From: a bacterium
Lineage (GTDB): Bacteria; JAMOTN01
NCBI GenBank assembly: GCA_027062325.1
Contig: JAMOTN010000025.1
Location: forward strand, 1-45,695
Length of the DNA stretch: 45,695 nt
Direction of reading: 5' to 3'
Shown here one piece after another: positions 155-38,339 of this stretch. How positions within the stretch are numbered: the first letter of the stretch is position 1; every line of letters begins with the position of its first letter. Position numbers and translations under genes: made by a program. Under the pieces are notes generated by a model, which was given only the letters and a program-made list of their open reading frames with translations, searched no databases and was not told where the DNA came from.

Positions 155-155
155 T

Positions 156-20962: not shown

Positions 20963-22322
20963 CGTTGGAGGGGAGCAGATGAGATTCCCTGATAAGCTAT
21001 ACCTTGCTGAACTAGATCCAAACGAGCGAATCGAAAATTTTGCAGAAGTTACTCGATCCGTTACTCTTTCACAAGTACAACAAGAAGCTGCAAGATGCCT
21101 TTCGTGTAAGAGCAAACCATGTTCCACAAATTGCCCCATCCACACTAAAATTCCAGAGATAATCCGTTTAATTAAGAACAACTCTTTGAAAGAGGCAACT
21201 TTACTTCTTCTTAAAGATAATCCTCTTCCTGCTATAACTGGACGTGTATGTCCTCAAGAAAGATACTGCGAAGGAAACTGTGTTTTAGCCAAAAACAGCA
21301 TCTCATTCGGAGCAATTGAGCGTTTTTTAGGAGATAAACTTCTCTTAGAAAGCACTATTTCTCCTGAAGAGTTAAAGCCGAAGGAATTAAGCTCTAAAAA
21401 AATTTCGGTTGCTATAATTGGCTCAGGTCCAGCCGGATTATCTTCGGCATTTTTTCTAACCTTGAATGGAGCGGAAGTAGCAGTATTTGAAGCCTTGGAT
21501 AAAGTAGGAGGCGTTTTAAGATACGGTATCCCAGAATTCAGACTCCCAAAAATGATCCTTGACTTACAAATTTCTTTCTTAGAAGAGTTAGGTGTGCAAT
21601 TTTTCACATCCTGCAGGATTGAAAAAGAAGACCTTGAAAAACTTGTTGAAGAATTTGATTACATTATAATGGCAACCGGAGCTGGCTTACCACGCCTTAT
21701 TGATATTCCCGGGATAAACTCGCCGCGTGTTATAACTGCCAATGAACTCCTATTCCGAGTAAACTACATGGAGGCTTACAAGTTCCCCGAAAAGCTCACC
21801 CCTGTCAAAAGGCCTGCTTCAGAATTACGAGATAAGGTGCATGCAGTTGTAGTTGGCGCAGGCAACACTGCCATGGATGCTGCAAGAGTCTTAAGACGAC
21901 TTGGCTACAAGGTCATTGTCGCTTATAGGCGCAGCATTTCAGAGTCTCGTGCACGTTACGCTGAGATAACCCATGCCATGGAAGAAGGAGTCAAATTTAA
22001 AGAGTACGTAGTTCCTGTAAAAGTATCATCAACTAATGATCCGATACACCCTCTCAAGATAACACTTGCTAAAACCAAAGTTGAGGGGAAGAAAGTTATT
22101 ACTCTTGAGAAAACTGAGACTCTTTATGCCTCACTTATGGTACTTGCAATTGGTTCACGCCGCAACTTCATAGAGGGAACAAGGGACTGGATAAAAGATT
22201 TTTCAACCAAAACAACCCAGTCACGAATCTTCGCAGCAGGAGATATAATAAGAGGCGCTGCCACTGTTATCGAGGCAGTCGCTGACGGTAAACGCTGTGC
22301 CGAACAGGTGTTAGAGAGGTAA
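20952..22322 (+). CDS. nfnB: NfnB/SudA (GltD-like) NAD(P)H-dependent Fe-S flavoprotein
   Basis: RCLSCKSKPCSTNCP, GRVCPQERYCEGNC, GSGPAG, YGIPEFRLPK, GAGNTAMD, YRRS, FAAGD..G.ATV motifs. Confidence 0.85.
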   Translation: MRTNVGGEQMRFPDKLYLAELDPNERIENFAEVTRSVTLSQVQQEAARCLSCKSKPCSTNCPIHTKIPEIIRLIKNNSLKEATLLLLKDNPLPAITGRVCPQERYCEGNCVLAKNSISFGAIERFLGDKLLLESTISPEELKPKELSSKKISVAIIGSGPAGLSSAFFLTLNGAEVAVFEALDKVGGVLRYGIPEFRLPKMILDLQISFLEELGVQFFTSCRIEKEDLEKLVEEFDYIIMATGAGLPRLIDIPGINSPRVITANELLFRVNYMEAYKFPEKLTPVKRPASELRDKVHAVVVGAGNTAMDAARVLRRLGYKVIVAYRRSISESRARYAEITHAMEEGVKFKEYVVPVKVSSTNDPIHPLKITLAKTKVEGKKVITLEKTETLYASLMVLAIGSRRNFIEGTRDWIKDFSTKTTQSRIFAAGDIIRGAATVIEAVADGKRCAEQVLER

Positions 22323-22345
22323 AATTGCCATTGCCAATCAACCTT

Positions 22346-23887
22346 TTACCTCCTCTTGCCCCTTTTTCTATCATTATGCCGTTCATGCCGTCTAAAACTA
22401 TTCCTATTCCCAATTCTTGCATTTTGATTATTCTTGTACTCTCTTTCCTCCAATCTTCTTTTTTCCTCAACCAATGCAGTTACAAACTCCAGCATATTAA
22501 GAAAGTCCTTTACTTCTCTTTTTTCCGCTAAGGAAACTATTTTAGATAATACATTTGCTCCTCTATTTTCCATAATCTTCTTTAAAAAGTGATCTACCAC
22601 TAAGACAGAAAATCTTTCCTTATCCTCCTTTGTCCAATTAAGCTTATACACTCTATCATGAACAGTTATCAACATCTTAATCAAACTTTTAGCTGTGTCC
22701 TCCATCTTTTTTCCAACATTTAAGGACATAATTCTATTTCTTAACTTCTGCAAATTCATATTCCGCCAATCCTCGTAAAATGACGCCACATCAAATCTAT
22801 CATCCATTTTTATTTCGATAAGCGAAGCTATCCACGTAATCCTTGGCTCTGGTGGAGTAAATTTCACTTTTCCCGTTAAATCCAACACCCCAAAGCCGTA
22901 AGTCTTTTTTCCTAAGCTATATTTCCATATCGTCTTGGGCAATTTTTCCATACTTATCCTACGATTTTTCCTGTAATAAGGGTACTCCCTTCTCGCATCT
23001 ATCTTTTCATCTCTTATCTCCTCTAAAAATACGCTTTTGGCTGCCACTCCCGTCCCAAATCCACTAATCAAATAGTAGCCTATAGGTTGTTCAAATAACC
23101 ATCCAACACTCTCTCCCATACTTTCATCCAACCTCAATCCAAAAACATCAAAATACCAAAGTGCCAGTAATTTCAATACCCCTTCTAAACTCGACAGATC
23201 TAAAGCCGCCACTTTTTTAGGATAATTTTCTTTTAAATCCTTAATCTGTTTTTTCATTTCTGAAGAACCCAGGATCTTTTCTTTTATAAATAAAAATAAA
23301 ATTTCATCCATCTCAACGATCAACTTAACAGGACTTCTAGTAGCAATAAAGTAATAATTTTGCCTTATCCTTTTTTTTCTAGTTGCCTCAGCACTAAAGT
23401 TTATATACTTTGCAGGATTTTCTTCAATACTTACTTTTACAAACTTCCCTATTTTGTTTAAATTGTCTTTTCCCAACCGCTCTAGCCTCACTACATCCTC
23501 ATTCCTTCCACTCATCTCAGCAAATTCTAAAACCTTATCGTAAAACACCTTTCCTACTTTCTCAAACAATTTATTAAGCCTTCTACCCCTAAACTTACTA
23601 AAATCAATTTTGTTGAACATCCCCGCAAATTTTGCTGCAGCAAATATGGTAGTTATAAACGCCCCTTTTATCTCTGTAGCCGGTATATACTTCATGTAAG
23701 CATATCTTTTAGGATCTGTTGCACTCAAAACTTTCTTAATAAACTCTATGTCAAAATTATCGCTTTTCTCAATCTTTTCCACCACAGCCGATAGCCAATC
23801 CGCAAATATCCCTTCCTTTCCTTTACTCTTAAAACAGAAAGGAGTAGCTGTCGTTACATTAAACTCTGCTCGCAACCACTTAACCAT
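22346..23887 (-). CDS. csm5: type III CRISPR RAMP Csm5 (Cas7 group) with ~170-aa C-terminal extension
   Basis: N-terminal T.TP strand, YIPATEIKGAF, G-rich GFGTG..AKS, PKT...GFGVL; downstream of csm2-csm3. Confidence 0.7.
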   Translation of the reverse strand: MVKWLRAEFNVTTATPFCFKSKGKEGIFADWLSAVVEKIEKSDNFDIEFIKKVLSATDPKRYAYMKYIPATEIKGAFITTIFAAAKFAGMFNKIDFSKFRGRRLNKLFEKVGKVFYDKVLEFAEMSGRNEDVVRLERLGKDNLNKIGKFVKVSIEENPAKYINFSAEATRKKRIRQNYYFIATRSPVKLIVEMDEILFLFIKEKILGSSEMKKQIKDLKENYPKKVAALDLSSLEGVLKLLALWYFDVFGLRLDESMGESVGWLFEQPIGYYLISGFGTGVAAKSVFLEEIRDEKIDARREYPYYRKNRRISMEKLPKTIWKYSLGKKTYGFGVLDLTGKVKFTPPEPRITWIASLIEIKMDDRFDVASFYEDWRNMNLQKLRNRIMSLNVGKKMEDTAKSLIKMLITVHDRVYKLNWTKEDKERFSVLVVDHFLKKIMENRGANVLSKIVSLAEKREVKDFLNMLEFVTALVEEKRRLEEREYKNNQNARIGNRNSFRRHERHNDRKRGKRR

Positions 23888-23915
23888 ATAAACTCCTCCC
23901 AGTAGCTATAATCCA

Positions 23916-24566
23916 CTACTCTACAACCACACTTTCATTCACTTTACTAAACCTAACTCTTCCATAACCTCTACTACCACTTCCACCAAGGTAGTCACTT
24001 TCTACCAACTTCAACCCCTCATCCACCAGAGAAAGCAGACTCTTTTCATCATCTCCTTCAAATACCTTGACGAGAATCTTTCCTCTAAACACGCTACCAG
24101 CAGCAACTCTCTCCATTATCCTAGGTCCAGCACCAGAAACTGTCCCAGTAATTCTATCTATGGAAACCTCCGTCTTTTCTTCCAATTTATAGTTTACAGG
24201 CATGAAGTCTTCAACAATTATGCGAGTAGGCGCAATTTCTTTCATATTTTTACCATCCTTATCTCCTGCAGAAACTCCAAATAATTTCAGAAAACTTTTT
24301 AATTTTTCATCACTTCCATCTTTTAATACACTTAAATCAGCCGGTTTCCCATCCTTGCTCCAACCATACTTTAGTTCTAATAAAGATCTCATCTTTCCTT
24401 TCAAACTTGAACCGGGAATGTAAGGTTCTCCATCCAGCGGATTTTTTACGACCGGATTATCTATTCCTCCTATTCTCTCTTCAGTTCCACCCGCTCCTAT
24501 ATGCAAACCCGTTAAAATTTCAACATCATATATCAACTCTAAAACTTTCTTTAATTTCTTACCCAC
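23916..24566 (-). CDS. csm3: type III-A CRISPR RAMP Csm3 (Cas7)
   Basis: TGLHIGAG, IGGIDNPVVK (catalytic Asp), PYIPGSSLKGKMRSLLE, KTEVSIDR, ERV.AG, YLGGSGSRGYG. Confidence 0.95.
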   Translation of the reverse strand: MGKKLKKVLELIYDVEILTGLHIGAGGTEERIGGIDNPVVKNPLDGEPYIPGSSLKGKMRSLLELKYGWSKDGKPADLSVLKDGSDEKLKSFLKLFGVSAGDKDGKNMKEIAPTRIIVEDFMPVNYKLEEKTEVSIDRITGTVSGAGPRIMERVAAGSVFRGKILVKVFEGDDEKSLLSLVDEGLKLVESDYLGGSGSRGYGRVRFSKVNESVVVE

Positions 24567-24620
24567 AACCTTTCGCCTCCTCTTTCACTAGTTTTATCTT
24601 ATTGTTTTATCGCAAGTCTT

Positions 24621-25043
24621 TTACGAAGATCTTTTTCTCTTTCCATCTCTTTCCTTTTCAGAAAGTAGGACATAACTTACCTCTAAAACATCTACCTTGT
24701 TTCTCAACCAGTTTTCAAACTCTGCCAAACTTCCCAAAGTCAATAAATCCTTTTCCCACATTTCAAACTTTTTCAATAACTTGTCTATTTCTCCATTTTC
24801 TCCTTTTTTGTCTTTTCTAACCATGTTATATCTCACTCTATACAGCCCTATAACAAGCTCTTTTTTCCAATCGTTAAGTTTCTCTCCCACTTTCTTTTCC
24901 TTTTCTACTTCATACAACTTTGCCAAAAAGATATTATAAAGCTTTCTCAACTGCCTATTACCAACTTCTTCACTTTCAAAAAACTTTGACAACTCCTCTG
25001 CCTCATCTCTAACCCTCTTCCACTCCTCACTCACTCTTACCAC
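24621..25043 (-). CDS. csm2: type III-A small subunit Csm2 (Cas11)
   Basis: 140-aa helical protein with AEELSK...QLRKLY and Y...R motifs, upstream of csm3. Confidence 0.8.
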   Translation of the reverse strand: MVRVSEEWKRVRDEAEELSKFFESEEVGNRQLRKLYNIFLAKLYEVEKEKKVGEKLNDWKKELVIGLYRVRYNMVRKDKKGENGEIDKLLKKFEMWEKDLLTLGSLAEFENWLRNKVDVLEVSYVLLSEKERDGKRKRSS

Positions 25044-25098
25044 CTCACTTGCATTAACACTTTGATTGTAATTTAACTTTCAGATTATTTGTATAGTG

Positions 25099-25114
25099 TG
25101 CTAATATTATAACA
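25099..25114. promoter_or_regulatory. putative bidirectional promoter of the cas locus (overlapping extended -10 elements)
   Basis: Minus strand TGtTATAAT (25114-25106) and plus strand TGcTAATAT (25099-25107) within the 96-bp divergent gap. Confidence 0.5.
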
Positions 25115-25139
25115 AACCACCCCAACGGAGGTAATTAAT

Positions 25140-25979
25140 TTGGCAAATCAAACCATTAGCATTTACAGGATAAAATTTGAAAAAATTTTCAACAAATTTG
25201 AAAATTGGCGGTGGAATTTACACTCACGCTTAGGAATTGCTTTAAAATCTACATTTTGTCAAATCAAAAAAGCAAGTCCTAAGGAGTGTAGGAATTGCTT
25301 TAGAAAAATTTTTTGCCCAGTCGCTCAAATATTTTTTAGAAATTGGATAAGTGGAAAAATACCACCGCTTCCTTTAAGGTTCTCTACAACCCCCAACTCA
25401 AACAACTCATTGTACCTTTTTGAATACGAACCCGGCACTGCAAAATTAACATTTGAAGCTCTCAAAACATTTGAAAGCGAAGATTTTAAAGTGGTTTCTA
25501 TGAGAAAAGTTTTTTCATTCTCTCCAGAAATTCTCTTAGATCACCACTCTCAACTTATAGAGTTTGCTACGAAACTTCTAAAAATCAAACTTTCGAATCC
25601 ATTTTCTTTTAAAATCTCAAATATATGCCTTCCTAAAAGCACTTCACAGGATATAAATTCTATAAAAGAATTGCTTTCCAGCCTTACTTATAATAAAACT
25701 AGAATAATTCTGCTATTCATGGGTATTTGGGAGGACTTTAAAGAACATTCTTTTAACCTTAAAGACTTTACCAACTACGTAGAAACAATGAACTTCTCAA
25801 TATCCACACTTCAAGTTTTTTCTCACAGAAACCAGAACTTCATAACCTATCCAGTTTTAAATTGTGAAATATCTTTTTCAGAATTCAACAACGAAGTTGC
25901 AAAATTTTTAATCTGCGCCAAAGTGTTCGGTTCTGGTAAGATGTCATCGGTGTACTCGGATGTTACAGTTATAAATTAA
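25140..25979 (+). CDS. cas6: Cas6-like crRNA processing RAMP, divergent
   Basis: L...LG.ALK..FC......C..C.....CP..IF......P.P signature, S.R.Q motif, C-terminal G.GK..S loop; RBS GGAGG; precedes cas10. Confidence 0.65.
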   Translation: MANQTISIYRIKFEKIFNKFENWRWNLHSRLGIALKSTFCQIKKASPKECRNCFRKIFCPVAQIFFRNWISGKIPPLPLRFSTTPNSNNSLYLFEYEPGTAKLTFEALKTFESEDFKVVSMRKVFSFSPEILLDHHSQLIEFATKLLKIKLSNPFSFKISNICLPKSTSQDINSIKELLSSLTYNKTRIILLFMGIWEDFKEHSFNLKDFTNYVETMNFSISTLQVFSHRNQNFITYPVLNCEISFSEFNNEVAKFLICAKVFGSGKMSSVYSDVTVIN

Positions 25980-25998
25980 AAATGGGAGGAGAGTAAAG

Positions 25999-28263
25999 GT
26001 GTCACTTAAAAACTTGGTAACCCAGGCTCTAAAACTTCTAGAATCAACAACTATAAAAGAAACTACTGACATTTTTCAAGCCCTAAAACTCCCTGTAATC
26101 ACCTATAATATGGAAAATTTAGACTCCATTTTTCCACACGTTTTTGAAAATATAGAAAGGTTATGGTTTGAACGTATTTTATGGCTTGACGGAGCTGAAA
26201 AAATCATTATTGGAAAACTAGATGTATCTGGAATACAACGTTTCTTAAGTGAGGTCCTAGTCTCAAAAGCTATGTCCACAATGAAAATTCGAAGCGAACT
26301 CTTGGAATTTTTGGAAAGTCTTTTTCTCTACTCCCTGGCAGAAAGCATAAATCTTATATTTGGTAAAGGCACTGCAAAGGTAATGGCTGTAGGGGCTGGA
26401 AAAGGCGACATATTCATCAAAGTCAGTGATGAAGACATATCACTCAAAGCAGAGATTACAAACCTTATCGCAGAAAATTTAATTCTCTCAATAAACTCCA
26501 GATTATACAGCTTTTTCGGAGTAAGGTGCCCAATTTTCATATTTGCACTTAGTAAAACTCCAATCGATCTTTCTTCCAAACTTTCTTCAAATGAAGAAAA
26601 GCTGTTAGATTCCTTTAAAATCTTAGAAAGTAAGAAAAATGTTAAGTGGAATCTAGTTGGTTTTGAAAAAACTTACTCAGAGTTTAACAATTCAACATCC
26701 AATTCAACAATTTGCGAATACACATACGAGACTATCAGTTGCTGTAAAAGATGTAAAAAATTTTTCTCAATCAATGAACTTCCAGAAAACAAAGACAAAG
26801 AGTTATGTATAGGATGTAATCTAATCGACAGTTTCAAGAAAGCAAGTCAAAACATAGACCCAACTTTAGCTCGAACCTCAACTATTATGATCGAGTTTAA
26901 TAATAACTCACTTACTATCAAACCTTTTGATAACCAAAGCGAAAATCGCTTACTCCAAAAGGTTACAGAGTTCATTTTAGGGTCAGGGATTACTATTCAA
27001 CTACCGGAAAATTTGTCTATCCATTCAACTTTTTCCAGAACAACTCGCTTTGCAATTTGCTGGGTTACTTCTAGAAACATTGAAAGTCTGGATTCTCTAA
27101 ACAAAACCAATCTAGATAATATCCACTGGATGATGTATAATGATGGCTCAATCTACGCAAAAATTCCAAATACAAAGAAATACCACTATGTATCTCTTCA
27201 AGATTTGGTTAACACTACTTTGAAAAGCCTGAACAAGAAAAACTCTTATATAGCTTTTGCTAAAAGCGATATAGATTCTTTCGGTAAAATTTTCGCATTT
27301 TCATTAAAAAACGCTTTCAAATCTCAAATTAACTCCTCAACAAGAGAATACTTCAAGATAGCTTTTTCTCTATCATATTACATTGAATATTTTGTGAAAA
27401 TTTTAACCTCTCAAGTTATTGAAGACCCCTCTGTCTTTCTAGATCACCTTATAAAAATCACATCTTCATCTGAAGAATTCACTAATTTGATAAAGCAGCT
27501 CAAAGATATTTTTAATGTCATACAAGAGTTTCCAAACAATGAATATTCTCTTCACGTTCATATCTTATATGCAGGTGGAGATGATATAACGCTGGTTGGT
27601 AGATTTTTAGATGTAATACTTGCTGTGATGCTTATATGGCTATTATTTAAGTTATATACTCACAACACTCTAGGATTTTCAACTGGAGTTTCCATTGATA
27701 AAGCAACCTTCCCTTTCTATCTTCTGAATAAAAGATCTTCAAAATTAGAAGAGACTGCTAAAAATATAATTAAATACCTTGCTAAACAGCATGCGCTTTC
27801 CATTAACACATCTTCTAAACCTATTCTAAAAGACGCAATTGCAATAGATACAGTTTCTCTATTTGAAAAAGGCTCAATCTGTTTATTTAAACAGGACATT
27901 TTATCTCAACTTCCAATTACATTTTCACGCTTCATAGAATTAGAAAGTGGTTTTATTAAACGCATAGCTAAAATTCAAAAGCTTATTAACTATCCAGAAA
28001 AAGACATAAGTCTACTTGAACTTTTCAAAGAATATATGCGTCTCGAATACTACATAATCAGAAAAGAAAAGGCAGACTCAGCTCTCGTTGAAACTTATTC
28101 AAAAATTAAAAATACATTTACAATTAGTAAAGACGAATTTTTATCTTATTCTAACTACAAACGTTGGGCTTCCATATTTCTTGCTTGTAAATTAGCATAT
28201 GAAACTAAAAAAATCATCAATAAAACAGCTGAAGAAAATTCATCTGAAGTTCAGGAGGGCTAA
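25999..28263 (+). CDS. cas10: Cas10/Csm1, no N-terminal HD nuclease, GGDD cyclase motif intact
   Basis: Palm1 KLDVSGIQRFL..RS, Zn finger CKRC..CIGC, Palm2 KSDIDSFGKIF and ILYAGGDDITLVG, S.G motif, E..AK, helical C-terminal domain. Confidence 0.9.
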   Translation: MSLKNLVTQALKLLESTTIKETTDIFQALKLPVITYNMENLDSIFPHVFENIERLWFERILWLDGAEKIIIGKLDVSGIQRFLSEVLVSKAMSTMKIRSELLEFLESLFLYSLAESINLIFGKGTAKVMAVGAGKGDIFIKVSDEDISLKAEITNLIAENLILSINSRLYSFFGVRCPIFIFALSKTPIDLSSKLSSNEEKLLDSFKILESKKNVKWNLVGFEKTYSEFNNSTSNSTICEYTYETISCCKRCKKFFSINELPENKDKELCIGCNLIDSFKKASQNIDPTLARTSTIMIEFNNNSLTIKPFDNQSENRLLQKVTEFILGSGITIQLPENLSIHSTFSRTTRFAICWVTSRNIESLDSLNKTNLDNIHWMMYNDGSIYAKIPNTKKYHYVSLQDLVNTTLKSLNKKNSYIAFAKSDIDSFGKIFAFSLKNAFKSQINSSTREYFKIAFSLSYYIEYFVKILTSQVIEDPSVFLDHLIKITSSSEEFTNLIKQLKDIFNVIQEFPNNEYSLHVHILYAGGDDITLVGRFLDVILAVMLIWLLFKLYTHNTLGFSTGVSIDKATFPFYLLNKRSSKLEETAKNIIKYLAKQHALSINTSSKPILKDAIAIDTVSLFEKGSICLFKQDILSQLPITFSRFIELESGFIKRIAKIQKLINYPEKDISLLELFKEYMRLEYYIIRKEKADSALVETYSKIKNTFTISKDEFLSYSNYKRWASIFLACKLAYETKKIINKTAEENSSEVQEG

Positions 28264-28265
28264 GT

Positions 28266-29405
28266 ATGAAGTCTGATATGATAGCATTAGTAGTTAAGTT
28301 ACCGTTCAAGAAAGTAAGATTCGGATACGTTGAAGACGAACCTTACAAAATATACAGTGAAGTAATTCCATCAGACCGCTTATGGGGAAATATCATTTAC
28401 AACTCTTTTCTCACTCTAGATGAAAAACTAGCAAATGAATTGATCAACTCCATGTATATATCCACTGCTTTTTTATATAATGAAGACACACTATTTATCC
28501 CACACTTTCCAAATGAGAAACTTATAAAGTTTGCAATAACTAAGGAACTTCTTGCTCCAAAGGATATTAAAAAACTTCGTTGGTTTCCCTTGAATAAATT
28601 CAAAGAATATATAAACCTCGATCCAAAAGCAAGCTCTCAGAAAGTTAAAAAATGGATTGAAGAAGAGTGGGCATACATAAGTGAAATGACAGAGAAAGAA
28701 TTTTACTCTGTAAAAACTGAAACCAATGCTAAATTGCCGTATCTTGGAGAAACTTCGGAGTTTGTCGCTTCTCCTTTCCACTTTAGTTGGGTGGAGTTCT
28801 CAAAAAATTCTGGTTATTGGTCTCTTATAATTCTCGATCCCTCATCATCAGATGTGGAAGTCTCTAAATTAGTCGACACTCTAATTAAGGTATTGGAATT
28901 TTCTTCGAAAGTTGGTCTAGGAAGCGATACATCTTTAGGCTTTGGTAAGTTTGAATTTAATGAAGAAAATATCTATCAACTTGAATGTAAAATTGAAAAT
29001 AATCTTACAAAACCCACAAATCTTTTTCTTATATCGCGAACCATGCTAGAGAATATAAACACATTAACTCAAAACAAGAAAATTACTCCTACAAAACTTG
29101 AGGTAGACATATCAACCGGTTGGACTAAAGGGTTATTTGACGAGGAGAAAACATCTTTTGCATATAGAAAAATTCCACTTCCCGTATACCGTGAAGGCTG
29201 TGTATGGAAACTCAACTCTATACCAGAAAAATTCCACATTGCCAGAATTAAAAGTGCTCCCTCAGAAGTGGAATTTTTGAAAGATCTCGGCATATTCATA
29301 CTGCCAGTTTTTTGGAAAGAACATATCTCAGAAAATCCTCATTCAATTTACAGAAACTTATCAATGTTAGCTTTCTTTACGATAGATCAAGAAATAGACA
29401 ATTAA
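28266..29405 (+). CDS. csm4: type III-A RAMP Csm4 (Cas5 group)
   Basis: IPSDRLWG.I, ISTAFLY.....FIP, GLGSDTSLGFGKF, GW...RK.....EG.V motifs. Confidence 0.85.
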   Translation: MKSDMIALVVKLPFKKVRFGYVEDEPYKIYSEVIPSDRLWGNIIYNSFLTLDEKLANELINSMYISTAFLYNEDTLFIPHFPNEKLIKFAITKELLAPKDIKKLRWFPLNKFKEYINLDPKASSQKVKKWIEEEWAYISEMTEKEFYSVKTETNAKLPYLGETSEFVASPFHFSWVEFSKNSGYWSLIILDPSSSDVEVSKLVDTLIKVLEFSSKVGLGSDTSLGFGKFEFNEENIYQLECKIENNLTKPTNLFLISRTMLENINTLTQNKKITPTKLEVDISTGWTKGLFDEEKTSFAYRKIPLPVYREGCVWKLNSIPEKFHIARIKSAPSEVEFLKDLGIFILPVFWKEHISENPHSIYRNLSMLAFFTIDQEIDN

Positions 29406-29411
29406 TAAGGG

Positions 29412-30086
29412 GTGAAAAATATGTTTAAAATAGCAAAGTTTAAATTGGGTTTAGAAACAACTTCACCTCTTCTGATTCCAGACACAAGCTATACAAAGTC
29501 ACTCCTCCACTCATATGATTTAATAGCAATACAAAAGGACTCTAAATACATCATTCCAGCAACCTCTCTTAAAGGAAAACTAAAATACCTATTTGCTATA
29601 AAACATGGCTTCGGCGGTACATCTTTAAAAGACTTAGAAGAACTTCCAGCTACATTAACAGATGTTTTCTTCAACTGGGTAAATGTGTTCGGTTGTGGAG
29701 CGGATTTGATGATGAATTTGAGTAAGAAAGGGAAACTTGAAGCTGTAAAATCCAAACTCAAGATCCCTGCTAGAGTATTTTTTAACGATTTAGTCAGCAC
29801 CAAGGAGATAAATAAAGAAGCTCCTTTTGAAAATAAAACCTCTGTATCTATCGACCGTTTTTCCCTAAAAGCCAATGATGGCTCACTTCTTCAATTTGCG
29901 TGCGTTCCCAGAAACACCCCCTTCGAAGGGGTAATTGAAATACTCTATAAGAACGATGAAGAATTAAAAAGCTACGTGGCTATACTCAAAGAGTCACTAG
30001 AAATGCTAAACACCGATTATCTCGGTAGAGGTGGCTCACGCGGAATGGGAAGGGTAAAAGTACTTTCTTTTTCAAAAGAAGAGTAG
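29412..30086 (+). CDS. csm3: second, divergent Csm3-like RAMP (Cas7)
   Basis: LETTSPLLI, YIIPATSLKGKLK, FG, PARVFFND, KTSVSIDR, VP....F, DYLGRGGSRGMGRV. Confidence 0.85.
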   Translation: MKNMFKIAKFKLGLETTSPLLIPDTSYTKSLLHSYDLIAIQKDSKYIIPATSLKGKLKYLFAIKHGFGGTSLKDLEELPATLTDVFFNWVNVFGCGADLMMNLSKKGKLEAVKSKLKIPARVFFNDLVSTKEINKEAPFENKTSVSIDRFSLKANDGSLLQFACVPRNTPFEGVIEILYKNDEELKSYVAILKESLEMLNTDYLGRGGSRGMGRVKVLSFSKEE

Positions 30087-30210: not shown

Positions 30211-30636
30211 TTACTCTTCTCTTATAAGAACAAAAAACTCTATCATATTATTTTCCAACATTTCTTTTATTTCATTGTACTCATATTCGCGCACTTCAAG
30301 CCTCTTTTTAGTCTTTAAAGCCAAAGCCCACTCTCCCTTGTTAAACACTATCTCTACTCTGTTGAAAAAGAAATGTTTCTCCAAATGAGGCGGGGCTAGT
30401 TTTTTTAAAACCTCCACTGTACTTTCATGCCCCAACGCACTCAAAATCTCAACGTTTTCTGCCTCAATGCCCTCTAAAATTTCAAAGTAAGTCTCCATTC
30501 CTATTCTTCTCAAAAAAAATCTAGCTTCCACATCATTATCTGGAATAGGAATAATTATGCTGTTCAACAGATAAACTCGACGTGGCAACTCATATTTTTC
30601 AAGCAAATTTGCAAAATTCAAACTACGCACTTCCAT
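30211..30636 (-). CDS. crn2: DUF1874 family ring nuclease (Crn2 / AcrIII-1 family)
   Basis: YLLNS...P, SALGHESTVE.L (GH motif), NR.EI....G..AL......RL...E pattern typical of DUF1874/YddF/STIV B116; adjacent to csm genes. Confidence 0.8.
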   Translation of the reverse strand: MEVRSLNFANLLEKYELPRRVYLLNSIIIPIPDNDVEARFFLRRIGMETYFEILEGIEAENVEILSALGHESTVEVLKKLAPPHLEKHFFFNRVEIVFNKGEWALALKTKKRLEVREYEYNEIKEMLENNMIEFFVLIREE

Positions 30637-30675: not shown

Positions 30676-30951
30676 TTACTCAAAAAGCGAATAGTATAAA
30701 GCAACTGCCAGACCTATTACTAAGCCAGTTCCAAGACCGTTTATGAATGATACCTGCTCCTCCTTTGCCTCTACCTTCTCTCCTTTTAAGCAAGCTTTTA
30801 AAATTTCTGGAATTGTGCGTTGAGCCTCTTCCGTCATAACAATGTTTGGTCTTATTTTCATATTGTAAAAGACTGCCCACATCCCTACAAACACTATTAT
30901 TAACAATGCCAACTTCCAAACAGCTCTAGGAGACTTGGCCATAGTCACCAC
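30676..30951 (-). CDS. small two-TM membrane protein of unknown function
   Basis: Hydrophobic helices LALLIIVFVGMWAVFY and GLGTGLVIGLAVALYY; 39 bp upstream of crn2. Confidence 0.7.
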   Translation of the reverse strand: MVTMAKSPRAVWKLALLIIVFVGMWAVFYNMKIRPNIVMTEEAQRTIPEILKACLKGEKVEAKEEQVSFINGLGTGLVIGLAVALYYSLFE

Positions 30952-33540: not shown

Positions 33541-36078
33541 CTAATCCTTTTTAGCAACAGAGCCATCCACTACTCCTATATCAGGCAACTTTTCAGCCTC
33601 TATTACCTTTCCATTTTCATAAACCGCCTGTGGCGTAAACTGACTCCTTATCTCCTCGAAGTTATCCTTGTATTTCTTTTCAAATACTCGAACAAAAGCC
33701 TCAGCCATCTCTGGATCAAATTGTGAGCCCCGCTCTTTTAAAATTGTGTCTATTGCAACTTCAGGAGGAAGCCCTCGTCTGTAAGCACGATGAGATGTCA
33801 TAGCATCAAATGTATCTGCTACAGCTATTATTCTCGAACCTATAGGAACATTCTCTCCTTTTAAACCATCTGGATAACCACGCCCATCGTATCTTTCATG
33901 GTGATGTTTGACCCACGGGATGATCTCTGCAAACATTTCAAATGGCTCTAGAATTTTCGCACTTATAACCGGGTGTTTTTGAATTTCACGGTATTCTTCG
34001 TCTGTAAGACGTCCCTTCTTCAGAAGGATGCTATCTCTTATTCCAATCTTTCCTATATCGTGAAGAAGGGCTGCCATCTCAAGCTTTTCTCTCTCTTCCT
34101 CACCCCAACCAAGCTCTTCTGCAATATCCTTTGAGTAAATCGCAACACGCTGTGAGTGTCCATGAGTATATGGATCTCTCGCATCCATTGCATTCGCAAG
34201 AACGTGAATGGTATCCTTGTACATCTTCTTTATTTGGCGATAAAGCTTAGAATTTTCGATCATTCCAGCAGCTAGAGAGGCAATAAGCTCGACCATTTTT
34301 AAATCTTCCATGTTATAGGGTATCTCTCCAAGTTTATTTAAAACCTCTAAAACTCCTATCACCTTTTCCTCTTTTGTAGCTCTATCTACAGTGATTAAAG
34401 GAACAGCTATAATTGAGCGAGTTTTAAACTGAGTTTTTTGGTCAGCCCCTTTGAAAAATCTATCATCCTTTGAAGTATCGGGAACAATAACCGACTCTTT
34501 ATTCTCTGCAACCCATCCTGCAATTCCCTGACCTCTTTTTAAGCGAATCTCCTTAAGCTTCTCCCCACTTCCACCCTCAACTATGTTGAAGTAAAGCTCT
34601 CCTGTATCCTCATTTCTCAACAATACGCTACTTGCCTCAGAATTCAAAGCATCCTTAGTCTTTGCTATAATAACGCCAAGCAACTCATCCAAATCCAGCG
34701 AAGAATTTATTATCTGCTTAGAAACATCAAAAATTGTCTCCAACTCCTTTACTTGTTGTATCAAGAACTCCTGCTTATAAAGCTTGTTGTATGCTTTGAT
34801 TGCTATCCTTTTCACATAGTCAAGATACTCCTTTTCAAAATCTGTAAACTCTTTTACTGAAAATACTACGGCTCCTCTTAAGCTAGCTAATACTTCATCT
34901 TTATCATTATTTTCAAAATCATCATTCTCACTATCCTCCCCTATCAACAACAAGACTTTATAGCCCTTCCAATCAAACAGATAATCCTTCTCCCTTTTTA
35001 TATGAGTGAATAACTCCTCTTTAAACTCATCCCAATCATCAATGAGCTCCTCACCTGTTCTGAGCTCAAACCTTTCTATATCTTTTCTATATGAATAAAC
35101 CCCTATTTGGGAAGATTTGAAAAATCCTGAGAAAAAGTTCGCTAGAACCTGCCAATAACTTGCCCAATCTTTTGCCTCAAAAAGTCCAACAGTCAACTTA
35201 TCTCTAGCTTCCAACCAAAACGGATTTTGAGTTGTCTCTATCCACCTATCCTCACTCTCTTTTAAAGGATTATCTTGAACAATTATTCGCTTAGCCATCT
35301 TAATTTTTTTGCTTTTCTCATCAACTTCAACTATTATTCCATTTAAACATCTCTTGTTACTAGAAGAAGCCCCGCGCATTTTCACAGGGAGCTTACCCAC
35401 GTATTGTTCAACTGCCATATCCCTCTTTATTCCAACAACAGACTCATGTGTTCCACACATTCCAGCATCAGTTATGTAAACACTTCCCTCAGGTAAAATT
35501 TGCAAATCCGCTGTCTGAACATGCGTGTGGGTACCGACGATGATGTGAACTCGTCCATCCAACCAATAAGCTAAACTCTTCTTTTCTATCTCACTTTCTC
35601 CATGAAAATCAACCATCCAAATATCAGCCTTATTATAGTGCTCATTTAATACTTCTTCTACTTTTTTAAACGGATCAACTGAAACCTTAACCTGCTCTTT
35701 CCCAAATATATCTATGAGAGTTTCAGCACCTAAAGCATTTATTACTCCTAACTTTTTCCCACCTTTTTCAACAACTATCCAACCTTTTCCCGGCATATCA
35801 TCAGGGTAATTTACAGGTCTAATAACAGGAAGCTCTTTTTCAAAAATCTTTTTCACATCTTTTCTAAACCATGTGTGATTACCTAAAGTTATAACATCAA
35901 CTCCTGTTTTCAAAATTTTCTCCGCCTCTTTTAAAGTTATCCCTAGGCCCTTCGCCGAGTTTTCTCCATTCACAACTATAAAATCCGGCTGTAGCCTCTC
36001 TTTAATCCAGGGAACTAACTTTTCTATTATCTCCAATCCTACATCGTCATTTATATCTCCTAGAAAAACAATTCTCAT
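33541..36078 (-). CDS. YmdB-family metallophosphoesterase fused to GAF domain(s) and HD-GYP phosphodiesterase
   Basis: N-term LGDI, VNGENS, TLGNH, DFHGE, GTHTHVQTAD, YITDAGMCG; GAF GQGIAGWVA..RSIIAVPL..GVLEVLNK; HD-GYP HSQRV, LLHDIGK, HHHERYDGRGYP, DTFDAMTS.RAYR. Confidence 0.9.
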   Translation of the reverse strand: MRIVFLGDINDDVGLEIIEKLVPWIKERLQPDFIVVNGENSAKGLGITLKEAEKILKTGVDVITLGNHTWFRKDVKKIFEKELPVIRPVNYPDDMPGKGWIVVEKGGKKLGVINALGAETLIDIFGKEQVKVSVDPFKKVEEVLNEHYNKADIWMVDFHGESEIEKKSLAYWLDGRVHIIVGTHTHVQTADLQILPEGSVYITDAGMCGTHESVVGIKRDMAVEQYVGKLPVKMRGASSSNKRCLNGIIVEVDEKSKKIKMAKRIIVQDNPLKESEDRWIETTQNPFWLEARDKLTVGLFEAKDWASYWQVLANFFSGFFKSSQIGVYSYRKDIERFELRTGEELIDDWDEFKEELFTHIKREKDYLFDWKGYKVLLLIGEDSENDDFENNDKDEVLASLRGAVVFSVKEFTDFEKEYLDYVKRIAIKAYNKLYKQEFLIQQVKELETIFDVSKQIINSSLDLDELLGVIIAKTKDALNSEASSVLLRNEDTGELYFNIVEGGSGEKLKEIRLKRGQGIAGWVAENKESVIVPDTSKDDRFFKGADQKTQFKTRSIIAVPLITVDRATKEEKVIGVLEVLNKLGEIPYNMEDLKMVELIASLAAGMIENSKLYRQIKKMYKDTIHVLANAMDARDPYTHGHSQRVAIYSKDIAEELGWGEEEREKLEMAALLHDIGKIGIRDSILLKKGRLTDEEYREIQKHPVISAKILEPFEMFAEIIPWVKHHHERYDGRGYPDGLKGENVPIGSRIIAVADTFDAMTSHRAYRRGLPPEVAIDTILKERGSQFDPEMAEAFVRVFEKKYKDNFEEIRSQFTPQAVYENGKVIEAEKLPDIGVVDGSVAKKD

Positions 36079-38339
36079 TACTGACCCTCCTTTGGCTCAA
36101 GCCCGTTAATTTCATCCTCTATATCTGCAAAAACTACTCTATTTCTTCCAGTTTCCTTTGCCGTATAAAGAGCCCTGTCAACTCTTTTTATAAAACTTTC
36201 AACGCTCTCTCCCCTCTGCCAAATACCGACACCTATACTTATAGTCACCCTTATTCCTTTTATAGTCTCTGAAGCTACAGTTTTTCTTATTCTCTCTGCT
36301 ATAACAATTGCACCATCTTTTGCAGTTTCAGGAAGTATAACTGCAAACTCTTCTCCTCCGTATCTACAGGGAATATCGATCTTTCTTACTATTGATTTTA
36401 TCACCTGAGCAACTGCTTTTAAAACTTCATCTCCAACTTGATGTCCATATCTATCATTTATACTCTTAAAATGATCAATATCTGTCATCAATAAAGCAAC
36501 TTCCTTACCATATCTTCTAGCCCTTGCAATCTCCTCCTCTATTCTCATATCAAAGTATCTTCTTACAAACAAACCTGTTAAGCCATCCTTTGTAGCCATT
36601 TCATAAAGCCTTGCACTCTCTACAACACCACTTACCTGAGAAGTCAAAATCTTTAATAACTCTACATAATCGTTGACATTTTTTAAAACCCCTTCAGGAA
36701 GATTTACTACATTTAAAACTCCAACTGTTCTTCCATGTAAACTCAGAGGATAACAAAGCAAATTTCTAACTGACCCCACACTTAAGCCTTTTTCTTTAAA
36801 CTCAACTTCTCCTTTTTTTATCTTATTCAAACTATCCACAAGCTCCCAGTCTCCATCTGAAAACACTTTACCAGCTATTCCTTCACCCTTTTTCAAAATA
36901 ATCTTTTCTCCCTCAGCAAACTTAGATGGCCAAACAGCCTTGACAACAAGACCGCCAGCCCCTGCATCCCATAACATAACCGAAGCCCTCTCACACCCAA
37001 CCGCCTGAACTACTTCTTCCAAAAAGTTTTTTAATATAGCATCTAAATCCGTTAAATCCTGAACTTCCGTAGCAATTTTCTTTATCACCTCAAGTTCACG
37101 TTCTTTTTCTAACTTTTTCAACCTTTCTTCTTCATAAAGATATCGATACTTAACAGCACCAACAGTTAAAAAAAGCATAAACCAACTAAAACACAGTGCT
37201 CCAAAGTGCACGTATTGATTGAATACAAGTCCAATGAAGAACACCCCAGCTACAAAAGGAATATACAGTATATTTCTAATAACCCAATTCTTTGACTTTA
37301 CATCAAACAATATCACCAACGAAATAAAAGCTATAATCAAATCCAGCATCTTATTGCTTTTCAAATACTTCCTATGCTTCAAATCTTTGTAAGCATAGGA
37401 ATGCCAATAAACTCCCGGAATTAAACCCATATCTGTGCTATACCAATCTCTGCTGGTAACATCTCCTACAAATACAACCTTGTCTTTAAAAGCCTCTGTC
37501 AACTCTTCTGTTGACATTTTCAACACCTGCGACATAGAATATTCAATCATATCTTCACGCTCTTTAGGGAACACCACTCTGAAGCTTGAAAGCCTATCAG
37601 TTAAACTTTTATTCAAAACTCCTTCCTTTCTTGAAACTTTTTCTAAATTACTCCTCAATAGAGTCTCGGAGCTAGAACTTTGTCCAACACCTCTCTCAGC
37701 ATTAAACAAGCATAATTTTTCAGCTGAATAGTAATAAGCTGCGTATGCCAAAGTCTTTTCTCCAAAATCCTTATAGTACAAACGATACTTTCTTAATATC
37801 CCATCTTTGTCAAGTTCTACATTCACTATTCCAAAATCTAAAGCCTTTTGCCTTAGCAATTTCGCAGGATATACAACAGATGGAACCAACATGGAATTAT
37901 CTATTCTAACAGCTAAAACTGCAGGGATTTTTTCTAAAAGCCGTGAAAACTCTTTATCATAAGGAGACTCTAATTCAAATAAAATATCAAATAGGATAAC
38001 TTTGGGACAGTTAGAAGAATTTTTGAGCATCGACAAACGCTCTAAGAAATCTATGCAAGCCTTTCTCCTCTCAAAACCATGCTGTACTTTTCCAAAATAC
38101 TCTTCAAGACAATCATCCGTAATAGAAACAACCACCGTACTTTTGTCTTTATCAAACTCACATAACTTCAGTACCTTCTCAAAATACCTACTATTCACAA
38201 ACCAACGCCAGACATAACCGTCTATACCCGCTTCTAAAGCCATTACATATAAGAAGTAATAAACCATACTTCCCACAAAGAAACTCAAAAGTACAAATCT
38301 AAAGTTGGAATATCTTCCAAAAATATTCGATCCCCCCAC
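36078..38339 (-). CDS. membrane diguanylate cyclase, CHASE2-TM-GAF-GGDEF
   Basis: CHASE2 motifs (FDILF, D.DGILR, FKDKVVFVG, PGVYWH), 3 TM helices, GAF (GEGIAGKV), DGLTGL, DIDHFKSIND.YGH..GD, I-site RKID, RYGGEEF; TAATG overlap with next gene. Confidence 0.9.
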   Translation of the reverse strand: MGGSNIFGRYSNFRFVLLSFFVGSMVYYFLYVMALEAGIDGYVWRWFVNSRYFEKVLKLCEFDKDKSTVVVSITDDCLEEYFGKVQHGFERRKACIDFLERLSMLKNSSNCPKVILFDILFELESPYDKEFSRLLEKIPAVLAVRIDNSMLVPSVVYPAKLLRQKALDFGIVNVELDKDGILRKYRLYYKDFGEKTLAYAAYYYSAEKLCLFNAERGVGQSSSSETLLRSNLEKVSRKEGVLNKSLTDRLSSFRVVFPKEREDMIEYSMSQVLKMSTEELTEAFKDKVVFVGDVTSRDWYSTDMGLIPGVYWHSYAYKDLKHRKYLKSNKMLDLIIAFISLVILFDVKSKNWVIRNILYIPFVAGVFFIGLVFNQYVHFGALCFSWFMLFLTVGAVKYRYLYEEERLKKLEKERELEVIKKIATEVQDLTDLDAILKNFLEEVVQAVGCERASVMLWDAGAGGLVVKAVWPSKFAEGEKIILKKGEGIAGKVFSDGDWELVDSLNKIKKGEVEFKEKGLSVGSVRNLLCYPLSLHGRTVGVLNVVNLPEGVLKNVNDYVELLKILTSQVSGVVESARLYEMATKDGLTGLFVRRYFDMRIEEEIARARRYGKEVALLMTDIDHFKSINDRYGHQVGDEVLKAVAQVIKSIVRKIDIPCRYGGEEFAVILPETAKDGAIVIAERIRKTVASETIKGIRVTISIGVGIWQRGESVESFIKRVDRALYTAKETGRNRVVFADIEDEINGLEPKEGQ

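What the first reader, a model, noticed from the sequence alone, without database searches (positions are those of the whole stretch)
22346..22860. Csm5 appears fused to a second Csm2/Cas11-like domain plus an Arg-rich tail
Seen: Csm5 motifs end near aa 340 (PKT...GFGVL), then a TPPEP linker, then ~125 aa predicted helical (LQKLRNRIMSL...KMLITVHDRVYK...ERF...EVKDFLNMLEFVTAL) and a basic tail (RRHERHNDRKRGKRR). The QKLR start and the DF..MLE.V.A ending resemble the Csm2 QLR and C-terminal F..F.EA.VAY helices. Known: Cas7-Cas11 fusion defines type III-E. Inference: an independent Cas7-Cas11 fusion that caps the complex, alongside a free Csm2. The resemblance is by eye only.
Basis: partly seen in the sequence, partly recalled or inferred. 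Interest (0 to 1): 0.75.

Follow-up and report, generated by a model that had tools for sequence, protein, structure and literature searches.

The report
Divergent Csm5 with helical, basic extension
The last gene of a type III-A-like CRISPR operon encodes a very divergent Csm5 cap subunit with an extra 170-residue helical, arginine-rich C-terminal part, and whether that part is a second Cas11/Csm2 domain could not be shown.

Summary
Window 22346-23887 (-) is one uninterrupted 513-codon gene. Residues 1-342 are Csm5-like: hhalign against 21 Csm5 gave 82% probability, E 1e-5, ending at the Csm5 C-terminus. The gene sits in an operon csm2-csm3-X beside cas10-csm4. After a TPPEP linker come a roughly 130-residue all-helical domain and a 36-residue tail with 14 Arg/Lys. 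An assembly from a second sample bridges the junction with no indel.

The Cas11 reading is not established.
- **For:** Smith-Waterman against the neighbouring Csm2 gave p about 0.003. Csm2 ranks 2-3 of 6730 sequences. The last helix matches the Csm2 profile (P 0.017).
- **Against:** there is no Pfam, NCBIfam or PADLOC hit. HMMER scored 3.0 bits, within the shuffle range. A profile centred on the local Csm2 gave nothing, yet it recognised a foreign Csm2 at 97%.
- **Inconclusive:** AlphaFold models were poor (pLDDT 41 and 56), and fold searches listed no Cas11.

The protein has no detectable homologue among 1.84 billion representatives. Three other Csm5 proteins carry unrelated charged helical C-terminal extensions of 147-219 residues, so such extensions recur.

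Best reading: a lineage-specific RNA-binding cap extension. A Csm2-derived domain remains possible, at about 0.3.

The parts
22346..23887 (-). Whole gene, 513 aa (P0001) plus stop: Csm5-like core with a C-terminal extension
   Evidence: ORF list and translation. The only sequence match is to itself, among 7999 candidates scored from the 5.8-billion collection and in the full scan of 1.84 billion representatives.
23893..23900 (-). Shine-Dalgarno GGGAGGAG, 5 nt before the ATG
   Evidence: Read directly from the sequence.
22862..23887 (-). Csm5-like RAMP core, aa 1-342
   Evidence: hhalign against 21 Csm5: 82% probability, E 1e-5, aa 268-337 on the profile's C-terminal end. KYIPATEIKGAFITT resembles the consensus PYIPGSSIKGAIRTA. 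Weak RAMPs match in the genome scan, E 0.15. Atlas feature hits to RAMP clusters at 0.85 and 0.84, leads only.
22844..22861 (-). Linker F-TPPEP, aa 343-348
   Evidence: Sequence. An X2 contig bridges it without an indel.
22457..22843 (-). All-helical domain, aa 349-477, about the size of a Csm2. Ancestry unresolved.
   Evidence: AF2 of aa 346-482 gave seven helices at pLDDT 56. In-frame coding score is 0.37 bits/codon. SW against the local Csm2 gave p about 0.003. Profile searches were negative or marginal.
22349..22456 (-). Basic tail, aa 478-513: 14 K/R, 5 D/E, 2 H
   Evidence: Composition count. Identical in the X2 contig 22321-22471.
23916..24566 (-). csm3 (Cas7 backbone), immediately upstream in the same operon
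   Evidence: TIGR02582 at 3.5e-53, 180.6 bits against a cut-off of 90. About 50% identical to many Csm3 proteins.
24621..25043 (-). Free csm2 (Cas11), first gene of the operon (P0002)
   Evidence: PF03750 at 1.3e-3, below the cut-off. PADLOC Csm2 at 1.2e-4. hhalign against 27 Csm2: 70% probability, 4e-5. My Csm2 HMM: 23.6 bits, top hit among 6704 ORFs.
25140..25979 (+). Possible cas6 (P0003), first gene of the divergent operon
   Evidence: Only a weak PADLOC Cas6 hit, 1.8e-4. No Pfam or NCBIfam hit.
25999..28263 (+). cas10/csm1 with a GGDD motif and no N-terminal HD region
   Evidence: TIGR02578 at 2e-27, with protein 67-726 on model positions 227-741. 'YAGGDD' is visible in the translation.
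28266..29405 (+). csm4 (Cas5)
   Evidence: TIGR01903 at 5.8e-25, 88 bits against a cut-off of 55.
29412..30086 (+). Second Csm3-like Cas7
   Evidence: PF03787 at 9.4e-12, TIGR02582 at 4.7e-16, PADLOC Csm3 at 5.7e-22.
30211..30636 (-). STIV B116-like (DUF1874) protein next to the locus
   Evidence: PF08960 at 2.6e-13. That this family contains cA4 ring nucleases is recalled, not tested here.

Best explanation
P0001 is the Csm5 subunit of a type III-A-like effector. Csm5 is the Cas7-family protein that caps the Csm3 backbone at the 3' end of the crRNA. This copy has diverged beyond HMM recognition. It carries a lineage-specific C-terminal module: a roughly 130-residue alpha-helical domain followed by a 36-residue Arg/Lys-rich tail.

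The module most likely sits at the crRNA-3' (top) end of the complex. There it would add a positively charged surface that holds the crRNA 3' end or the guide-target duplex. This would be analogous to the extra domains on the terminal Cas7 of types III-D2 and III-E, and to the charged helical extensions found on three other Csm5 proteins.

Shown here: a single continuous gene, a Csm5-like core that ends near aa 340, and the helical and basic character of the extension. Inferred: its position in the complex and its RNA binding. Its descent from Csm2 is possible but not demonstrated.
For: Gene integrity: one ORF with its own RBS. The junction is bridged in two assemblies without an indel. In-frame coding score equals that of the core.

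Csm5 identity: hhalign 82% probability, E 1e-5, onto the C-terminal end of a 21-sequence Csm5 profile. The IPxxxIKGA motif is present. The gene lies in an operon csm2-csm3-X divergent from cas6?-cas10-csm4-csm3'. It is one of only four RAMP-like regions in the genome, and the other three are Csm3, Csm3' and Csm4.

Extension: seven predicted helices and 14 K/R in the last 36 residues.

Recurrence of such extensions: Csm5 of G382 has its core at aa 20-347 of 494. Csm5 of G158 has its core at aa 1-389 of 538. A Geothermobacter MAG Csm5 has its core at aa 3-360 of 579. That makes 3 of the 31 other Csm5 frames I looked at (30 loci plus L006). The first two extensions are homologous to each other (BLASTP 6e-8). 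None resembles Csm2 (hhalign 0.4%, 0.2% and 0.35%).

Precedent for extra domains on the terminal Cas7: the Cas7.4 INS and CTE domains of type III-D2, and the III-E INS domain that contacts the guide-target duplex (PMC13294483; passages read).

Against Cas11 ancestry: no family hit for the extension in Pfam at E<=10 or in PADLOC at E<=0.1. HMMER gave 3.0 bits against shuffles at 1.0 +/- 1.6. A profile centred on P0002 gave 0.3% probability, while a foreign Csm2 scored 97.4% against it.
Against: Csm5 membership is weak by HMM. TIGR01899 gave no hit. My own Csm5 HMM scored P0001 at 5.7 bits, E 3.2, below Csm3.

The extension is not homologous to the other Csm5 extensions (hhalign 0.3%; BLASTP E 1.9), so 'recurrent' means analogous at best.

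The pairwise similarity to the neighbouring Csm2 is better than expected for an unrelated domain. S=65 against 37.6 +/- 6.8 in shuffles, p_emp 0.003, and 1 of 2457 genome windows reach it. Csm2 ranks 2-3 of 6730 sequences. That favours the rival explanation.

No experiment or confident structure places the domain in the complex. RNA binding is inferred from charge alone.
Confidence: 0.5

Rival explanations
1. One reading: the helical domain is a Cas11 small-subunit domain that arose by duplication of the adjacent csm2 and fused to the C-terminus of csm5. It would end the Csm2 minor filament as a covalently tethered last small subunit.
For: Size and helical content fit Csm2.

Smith-Waterman against local Csm2 P0002 gives a collinear alignment of C-term 19-141 with P0002 12-137. 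S=65, p_emp 0.003 with whole shuffles and 0.003-0.005 with 10-20-residue window shuffles. One of 2457 genome windows is as good.

With the C-term as query, P0002 ranks 3 of 6730 (2 without the tail) and a foreign Csm2 (L056) ranks 5 (4 without the tail). L056 gives z 4.76.

The two pairwise alignments agree with the family alignment within +/-1 column at 48 of 82 positions.

hhalign against 27 Csm2 (without P0002) aligns EVKDFLNMLEFVTALVE to the family's last helix, P 0.017. One of 250 shuffles and 3 of 250 genome windows score as well.

MAFFT puts KLR under the nearly invariant QLR arginine and VY under AY.

Several Csm2 proteins, including P0002, also end in short K/R tails.
Against: No hit to PF03750 or any other family at E<=10, and none in PADLOC at E<=0.1.

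The HMMER Csm2 profile gave 3.0 bits, with 10-12% of shuffles as good or better and the reversed sequence at 4.0. The protein is not among the 2621 of 6704 ORFs reported at E<=1000.

hhalign probability is only 2.6% and covers only 17 residues. The reversed sequence scores 16.1 against 18.0 for the real one.

A profile of P0002 plus its five closest Csm2 gave score 13.4 in a different register, with 27% of shuffles and 24% of windows as good or better. It recognised L056 at 97.4%.

Without the basic tails the SW p rises to 0.018-0.036. Mean z against the 27 Csm2 is 0.60, compared with 1.56 for P0002 and 0.07-0.08 for controls.

The MAFFT --add identity test showed no excess: 11-19% of controls were as good or better for P0002, and about 50% for the family mean.

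An unrelated 192-aa Myb-like repeat protein outscores Csm2 as an SW hit (S=86).

The K.AY..GR motif is not kept, and the family's nearly invariant Glu is kept only in one of two registers.

None of 35 genomes with a PF03750 hit had it in a frame longer than 219 aa, apart from one false positive in a chemoreceptor.
Confidence: 0.3
2. The extension is a docking platform for a partner protein rather than an RNA-binding cap. The partner could be a host ribonuclease that trims the crRNA 3' end, or an accessory effector. The basic tail would be a flexible tether.
For: Csm5 lies at the crRNA 3' end where trimming occurs. Csm5 of Staphylococcus epidermidis is reported to recruit PNPase and RNase J2 (recalled from the literature, not read here). 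No CARF effector gene was recognised in the window with the scans run, so a non-canonical partner is conceivable.
Against: No candidate partner was identified. Nothing in the sequence points to a protein-binding module. A tail with 14 K/R of 36 fits nucleic-acid binding more simply.
Confidence: 0.12
3. Artefact: two genes (csm5 and a small downstream gene) joined by an assembly or sequencing error, or a non-coding 3' read-through.
For: The 33-codon tail has a weak in-frame coding score, 0.05 against 0.36 bits/codon in the +1 frame. There are no homologues to confirm the architecture.
Against: Two assemblies from different samples and studies agree across the junction and the tail with no indel, and the only difference is synonymous. 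The helical part scores 0.37 bits/codon in frame and negative in all other frames. No Shine-Dalgarno precedes the Met360 codon, and only a loosely spaced GAGGA (10 nt) precedes Met376.
Confidence: 0.03

Closest known systems
Csm5 (COG1332 / TIGR01899), the Cas7-family cap of type III-A Csm complexes
   Same: Operon position after csm3. The IPxxxIKGA motif. A C-terminal G-rich loop, P.T(R/I)W and G(W/F)G strand that hhalign places at the end of the Csm5 profile. No other Csm5 candidate in the genome.
   Different: No hit to the curated HMM and no sequence relative found in the two large protein collections. It has 171 extra C-terminal residues. Typical Csm5 proteins in my sample are 314-401 aa.
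Csm2 / Cas11 small subunit (PF03750)
   Same: The extension is of similar size and all-helical. It has a K-L-R where the family has Q-L-R, a final amphipathic helix resembling F..F...FEA.VAY, a basic tail like several Csm2 proteins, and a marginally significant pairwise similarity to the neighbouring Csm2.
   Different: It fails all HMM and profile thresholds. The middle K.AY..GR motif is absent. No fold evidence exists. It is covalently attached to a Cas7, not a free multi-copy subunit.
Cas7-11 (type III-E) and Cas7x3 (type III-D2) multidomain effectors
   Same: An extra domain is attached to a Cas7 at the far end of the backbone. In III-D2 the terminal Cas7.4 carries an INS and a C-terminal extension domain. 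In III-E the INS domain contacts the guide-target duplex (PMC13294483, passages read).
   Different: Here all other subunits are separate genes of III-A type with Cas10 present. There is no fusion of several Cas7 domains. No similarity to those domains was tested or shown.
Csm5 proteins with charged helical C-terminal extensions in G382, G158 and a Geothermobacter MAG (L069, L037, L006)
   Same: A canonical III-A operon with a free csm2, a Csm5 core followed by 147-219 extra residues that look, from the sequence, like charged helical segments, ending in a K-rich stretch.
   Different: Those extensions begin with a long E/K/R/Q coiled-coil-like stretch, and two of them are homologous to each other. 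P0001's extension shows no similarity to them, and its charged stretch is at the end.

Membership tests
Csm5 (type III-A Cas7-family cap) | Match to the curated family HMM (TIGR01899) above its cut-off | tested here: not met
   No NCBIfam hit at E<=0.01. G000 had no TIGR01899 match at 1e-5. My own 21-sequence Csm5 HMM gave 5.7 bits, E 3.2.
Csm5 (type III-A Cas7-family cap) | Profile-profile similarity to Csm5, including the C-terminal G-rich loop and last strand | tested here: met
   hhalign 82.3% probability, E 1e-5, aa 268-337 on profile positions 294-359 of 365. Only the C-terminal fifth of the profile is aligned.
Csm5 (type III-A Cas7-family cap) | Gene in a csm operon beside csm3, with cas10, csm4 and csm2 present and no other Csm5 candidate | tested here: met
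   Order is csm2-csm3-P0001, divergent from cas10-csm4-csm3'. The genome has four RAMP-like regions, and the fourth is P0001.
Csm5 (type III-A Cas7-family cap) | RRM/RAMP fold | tested here: inconclusive
   AF2 single-sequence model at pLDDT 41. Atlas structure hits have TM 0.25-0.27 to Cas7g and Csm4 clusters, under the bar.
Cas11 / Csm2 small subunit | Match to a family HMM (PF03750 or PADLOC Csm2) | tested here: not met
   0 families at E<=10 in Pfam for aa 345-513. 0 in PADLOC at E<=0.1. My Csm2 HMM gave 3.0 bits, with 10-12% of shuffles as good or better.
Cas11 / Csm2 small subunit | Profile-profile similarity over the domain | tested here: inconclusive
   hhalign against 27 Csm2: 2.6% probability, P 0.017, last helix only. 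Empirically 1 of 250 shuffles and 3 of 250 windows are as good. The P0002-centred profile gave 0.3% probability.
Cas11 / Csm2 small subunit | Conserved QLR arginine, K.AY..GR and FEA.VAY motifs in order | tested here: inconclusive
   KLR aligns under QLR and VY under AY. GR is not kept. The FEA Glu is kept only in the pairwise register, and it is Thr in the MAFFT/hhalign register.
Cas11 / Csm2 small subunit | Five- or six-helix bundle fold matching solved Csm2/Cmr5 | tested here: inconclusive
Cas11 / Csm2 small subunit | Small (about 120-150 aa) alpha-helical, positively charged protein or domain in a type III locus | tested here: met
   aa 349-477 are helical. The domain has 25 K/R against 21 D/E, and the tail has 14 K/R.
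Type III-E Cas7-11-like fusion | Several Cas7 domains and Cas11 in one polypeptide, without Cas10 | tested here: not met
   Separate csm3, csm3', csm4 and cas10 genes are present.

The most novel reading that the evidence does not exclude
An independent Cas7-Cas11 fusion inside an otherwise multi-subunit type III-A system. A duplicate of the neighbouring csm2 would have been captured at the 3' end of csm5. The minor (Cas11) filament would then be closed by a covalently tethered last small subunit with an RNA-gripping Arg-rich tail. This would be a snapshot of the first step on the road that led to the fused III-D/III-E effectors.
Probability: 0.3. Interest if true: 0.65.

Novelty: new variant of a known kind. 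Interest (0 to 1): 0.4.

Why it matters
Type III effectors differ most at the two ends of the Cas7 backbone. Subunit fusion is thought to have produced the single-protein III-E effector. A Csm5 that carries its own small-subunit-like domain would be an independent, early example of that trend.

Even if the domain is unrelated to Cas11, this protein and the three other extended Csm5 proteins found here show something useful. The crRNA-3' cap of III-A complexes repeatedly acquires charged helical appendages. My two literature searches found no description of these, although neither search was exhaustive.

The appendages could influence crRNA length, target-RNA grip or recruitment of partners. 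The practical value is modest until a structure or relatives are available.

Tried and rejected
- **Sequence searches for relatives of P0001.** The word-indexed search of 5.8 billion proteins (7999 candidates scored), the full phmmer scan of 1.84 billion representatives, 41 genomes in six frames, and PDB sequences found only the protein itself or nothing. No alignment could therefore be built for folding.
- **Relatives of the local Csm2.** The word search found only itself.
- **AF2 of the whole protein.** pLDDT 41, unusable.
- **AF2 of aa 346-482.** pLDDT 56. Foldseek PDB and VIA-align wide listed only generic helical proteins, with no Csm2 or Cmr5 in the rows shown. With such a model this says nothing either way.
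- **ESM Atlas on aa 343-513.** No feature hit, and structure hits with TM <=0.42.
- **Complex prediction of Csm2 (28-row alignment) with aa 343-485.** 'No answer', score 0.00. This is not evidence for or against binding.
- **BLASTP of the C-term against P0002.** Nothing.
- **MAFFT --add identity test.** No excess over controls. The 22% identity to P0002 seen in alignment A3 is therefore not used as evidence.
- **A weak PF03750 hit in a 702-aa ORF of G085**, considered as a possible fused Csm2. It is a methyl-accepting chemotaxis protein, a false positive.
- **Internal translation start for a free small subunit.** No Shine-Dalgarno before the Met360 codon. Only a GAGGA 10 nt before the Met376 codon, which would remove the first helices. 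Not supported.
- **Similarity to the top SW hit on contig C14.** It is a Myb-like repeat protein, and the match is taken as chance.
- **The search for related loci with Csm3.** It gave only 2 loci. In L007 the gene after csm4 is a CARF protein, not Csm5.
- **RNA evidence.** No RNA holder was listed. X3 and X4 hold only short identical fragments plus unrelated contigs.
- **Supplementary files of papers.** Not consulted.
Full report
**What is there.** Window 22346-23887 on the minus strand is one 513-codon ORF, P0001. A strong Shine-Dalgarno, GGGAGGAG, precedes it. It is the last gene of a three-gene operon.
- The first gene (24621-25043) is a divergent Csm2. PF03750 scores 1.3e-3, below the cut-off. 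PADLOC Csm2 scores 1.2e-4. hhalign against 27 Csm2 gives 70% probability.
- The second gene (23916-24566) is a clear Csm3. TIGR02582 scores 3.5e-53, and it is about 50% identical to many Csm3 proteins.

A divergent plus-strand operon encodes four genes:
- a weak Cas6 candidate;
- a Cas10 that keeps GGDD but lacks the region matching the first 226 positions of the Csm1 model;
- Csm4;
- a second Csm3-like Cas7.

A STIV-B116-like gene follows. The window holds no CRISPR array. The genome has one at the end of contig C29 next to cas1 and two cas2 genes. The genome is a 1.65-Mb, 84%-complete MAG. None of the genomes returned as its relatives is closer than 'same domain'. Its rRNA operon is about 60% GC against 36% for the rest of the window.

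**Is the N-terminal part Csm5?** No curated model recognises P0001: Pfam, NCBIfam and TIGR01899 in the genome scan all fail. My own 21-sequence Csm5 HMM gives only 5.7 bits. That must be stated against the assignment.

Profile-profile comparison does support it. It aligns aa 268-337 to the last 66 positions of the Csm5 profile at 82% probability, E 1e-5. ISGFGTG lies on the family's G.G.G loop, LPKTIW on P.TR, and YGFGVL on P.GW..L. KYIPATEIKGAFITT matches the family's PYIPGSSIKGAIRTA.

The genome has four RAMP-like regions. The other three are Csm3, Csm3' and Csm4.

**Is the fusion real?** The frame is open throughout. The in-frame codon-usage score of the helical part (0.37 bits/codon) equals that of the core (0.40) and is negative in the five other frames. 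The 33-codon tail is weak (0.05).

A 49-kb contig of run X1, probably the source, covers the gene with no difference. Run X2, from another sample and study, has a 153-nt contig across 22769-22921 with no indel and one synonymous change (Ile357 ATC>ATT). It also has an identical 151-nt contig over the tail and stop.

**What is the extension?** After F-TPPEP (343-348) come about 130 residues predicted as seven helices. A 36-residue tail follows, with 14 K/R, 5 D/E and 2 H.

The extension has no family hit in Pfam at E<=10 or in PADLOC at E<=0.1. The whole-protein scan of NCBIfam at E<=0.01 also found nothing. No sequence relative turned up in the word search of the 5.8-billion collection (7999 candidates scored) or in the full scan of 1.84 billion representatives. 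The Atlas gave no feature hit.

**Tests of the Cas11 idea: points in favour.**
- Smith-Waterman of aa 343-513 against the neighbouring Csm2 gives a collinear alignment over nearly the whole Csm2. S=65, against 37.6 +/- 6.8 for 3000 shuffles, p_emp 0.003.
- With 10- and 20-residue window shuffles, p is 0.003-0.005. One of 2457 non-overlapping genome windows is as good.
- Used as a query against 6730 sequences, the extension ranks the local Csm2 third (second without the tail). It ranks a Csm2 from an unrelated genome (L056) fifth (fourth without the tail; z 4.76).
- The two alignments agree with the family alignment within one column at 48 of 82 positions.
- hhalign against 27 Csm2, not including the local one, aligns the last helix to the family's last helix at P 0.017. 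One of 250 shuffles and 3 of 250 genome windows score as well.
- MAFFT places KLR under the nearly invariant QLR arginine.

**Tests of the Cas11 idea: points against.**
- hhalign probability is 2.6%, over 17 residues only. The reversed sequence scores almost as well, 16.1 against 18.0.
- A HMMER Csm2 profile gives 3.0 bits. Between 10% and 12% of shuffles do as well, and the reversed sequence scores 4.0. The protein is not among the 2621 of 6704 ORFs reported at E<=1000.
- A profile built from the local Csm2 and its five nearest relatives should be the most sensitive detector of a local duplicate. It gives 13.4 in another register, with 24-27% of controls as good or better. The same profile scores the foreign Csm2 L056 at 97.4%.
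- Without the basic tails the pairwise p rises to 0.018-0.036.
- Mean z against 27 Csm2 is 0.60, compared with 1.56 for the true Csm2 and 0.07-0.08 for two negative controls.
- A MAFFT-add identity test shows no excess.
- An unrelated Myb-like repeat protein is a better SW hit than Csm2.
- A chemoreceptor in another genome reaches E 9e-4 on PF03750. This shows how easily helical proteins give weak Csm2 matches.

**Context from other Csm5 proteins.** Among the 30 Csm5 loci plus L006, three carry long C-terminal extensions after a complete core.

| Source | Core (aa) | Protein length (aa) |
|---|---|---|
| G382 | 20-347 | 494 |
| G158 | 1-389 | 538 |
| Geothermobacter MAG | 3-360 | 579 |

A separate csm2 is present in the same genome in all three. 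It lies in the same operon in G382 and the Geothermobacter MAG. In G158 it is on another contig.

The G382 and G158 extensions are homologous to each other (28% identity over 127 aa, E 6e-8). All three start with a long charged stretch and end K-rich. None resembles Csm2. None resembles the P0001 extension.

Charged helical appendages on the III-A cap subunit therefore recur. In the other cases they are not detectably Cas11.

Passages of PMC13294483 describe INS and C-terminal-extension domains on the terminal Cas7.4 of type III-D2. They also describe an INS domain contacting the guide-target duplex in type III-E. This is the closest structural precedent for an added domain at this end of the backbone.

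My two searches, Csm5 + Csm2 + fused + C-terminal domain and Csm5 + C-terminal extension, found no paper describing an extended or Cas11-fused Csm5. I read only search listings and abstracts, plus passages of PMC3150331 and PMC13294483. Supplements were not available.

**Verdict.** P0001 is a Csm5 with a real, fused, Csm2-sized helical domain and an Arg-rich tail. Homology to Cas11 rests on one pairwise similarity at p about 0.003 and one matching helix, and it is contradicted by the most pertinent profile test.

I put the lineage-specific RNA-binding cap extension at about 0.5, a true Csm2-derived domain at about 0.3, a partner-docking module at about 0.12, and an artefact at about 0.03. The placement in the complex and RNA binding are inferences from Csm architecture and charge. 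They are not results.

Noticed in passing
window 30211-30636 (-): A 141-aa STIV B116-like / DUF1874 protein (PF08960, 2.6e-13) lies directly after the type III genes. From recall, this family includes the cA4 ring nucleases AcrIII-1/Crn2. Together with the GGDD-bearing Cas10, this suggests cyclic-oligoadenylate signalling with a built-in off switch.
   Followed up: partly
window 25999-28263 (+) and the whole window: Cas10 keeps GGDD and a Cys-rich stretch but has no region matching the HD part of the Csm1 model (protein 67-726 on model 227-741). No CARF/SAVED-type effector gene was recognised near the locus with the Pfam, NCBIfam and PADLOC scans I ran. P0003 (279 aa) and the 91-aa ORF at 30676-30951 remain unassigned.
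   Followed up: partly
window 23916-30086: The effector genes are split into two divergent operons (csm2-csm3-csm5 on the minus strand; cas6?-cas10-csm4-csm3' on the plus strand), with two different Csm3-type Cas7 genes. This is not the usual cas10-csm2-csm3-csm4-csm5 order.
   Followed up: no
G000 contig C29, locus L071:11189-13894: A CRISPR array of at least 9 copies of a 35-nt repeat ending in ATTACGAC runs off the contig end. Next to it are a long Cas1 (535 aa; the Cas1 model matches only aa 184-324) and two cas2 genes. Several spacers are very GC-rich although the genome is about 36% GC. One spacer occurs twice.
   Followed up: partly
L069:6299-7783 (-), L037:880-2493 (+), L006:7674-9413 (+): Three Csm5 proteins from unrelated genomes carry 147-219-aa charged helical C-terminal extensions after a complete Csm5 core. 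Two of the extensions are homologous to each other (BLASTP 6e-8). No Pfam hit for the one scanned on its own (G382) and none over that region in the G158 protein; the Geothermobacter extension was not scanned against Pfam. My two literature searches found no description.
   Followed up: partly
window 1-4835 and genome G000: A bacterial 5S-23S-16S rRNA operon at about 60% GC sits in a window that is otherwise about 36% GC, as in thermophiles. The runs that hold the DNA are hydrothermal-vent metagenomes. None of the genomes returned as relatives is closer than 'same domain'.
   Followed up: no
window 33541-38339 (-): Two large signalling proteins lie next to the CRISPR locus: YmdB-like phosphoesterase + GAF + HD (845 aa), and CHASE2 + GAF + GGDEF (753 aa). 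The GGDEF domain also gives a weak hit to the Cas10 palm2 model.
   Followed up: no
L068:4612-6720 (+) in G085: A methyl-accepting chemotaxis protein gives a PF03750 (Csm2) match at E 9e-4 in a genome scan. This is a reminder that weak Csm2 hits in long helical proteins are unreliable.
   Followed up: yes
L007:7442-8794 (+): In a Bryobacteraceae MAG, the gene after csm4 in the usual Csm5 position is a TIGR02710-family CARF protein (8e-11, below the cut-off) rather than Csm5.
   Followed up: no
G000 contig C14, locus L070:1452-2030 (+): A 192-aa protein with two Myb/SANT-like 'WTKE(D/E)E..LKENY' repeats. It is the best chance Smith-Waterman hit of the P0001 extension.
   Followed up: partly
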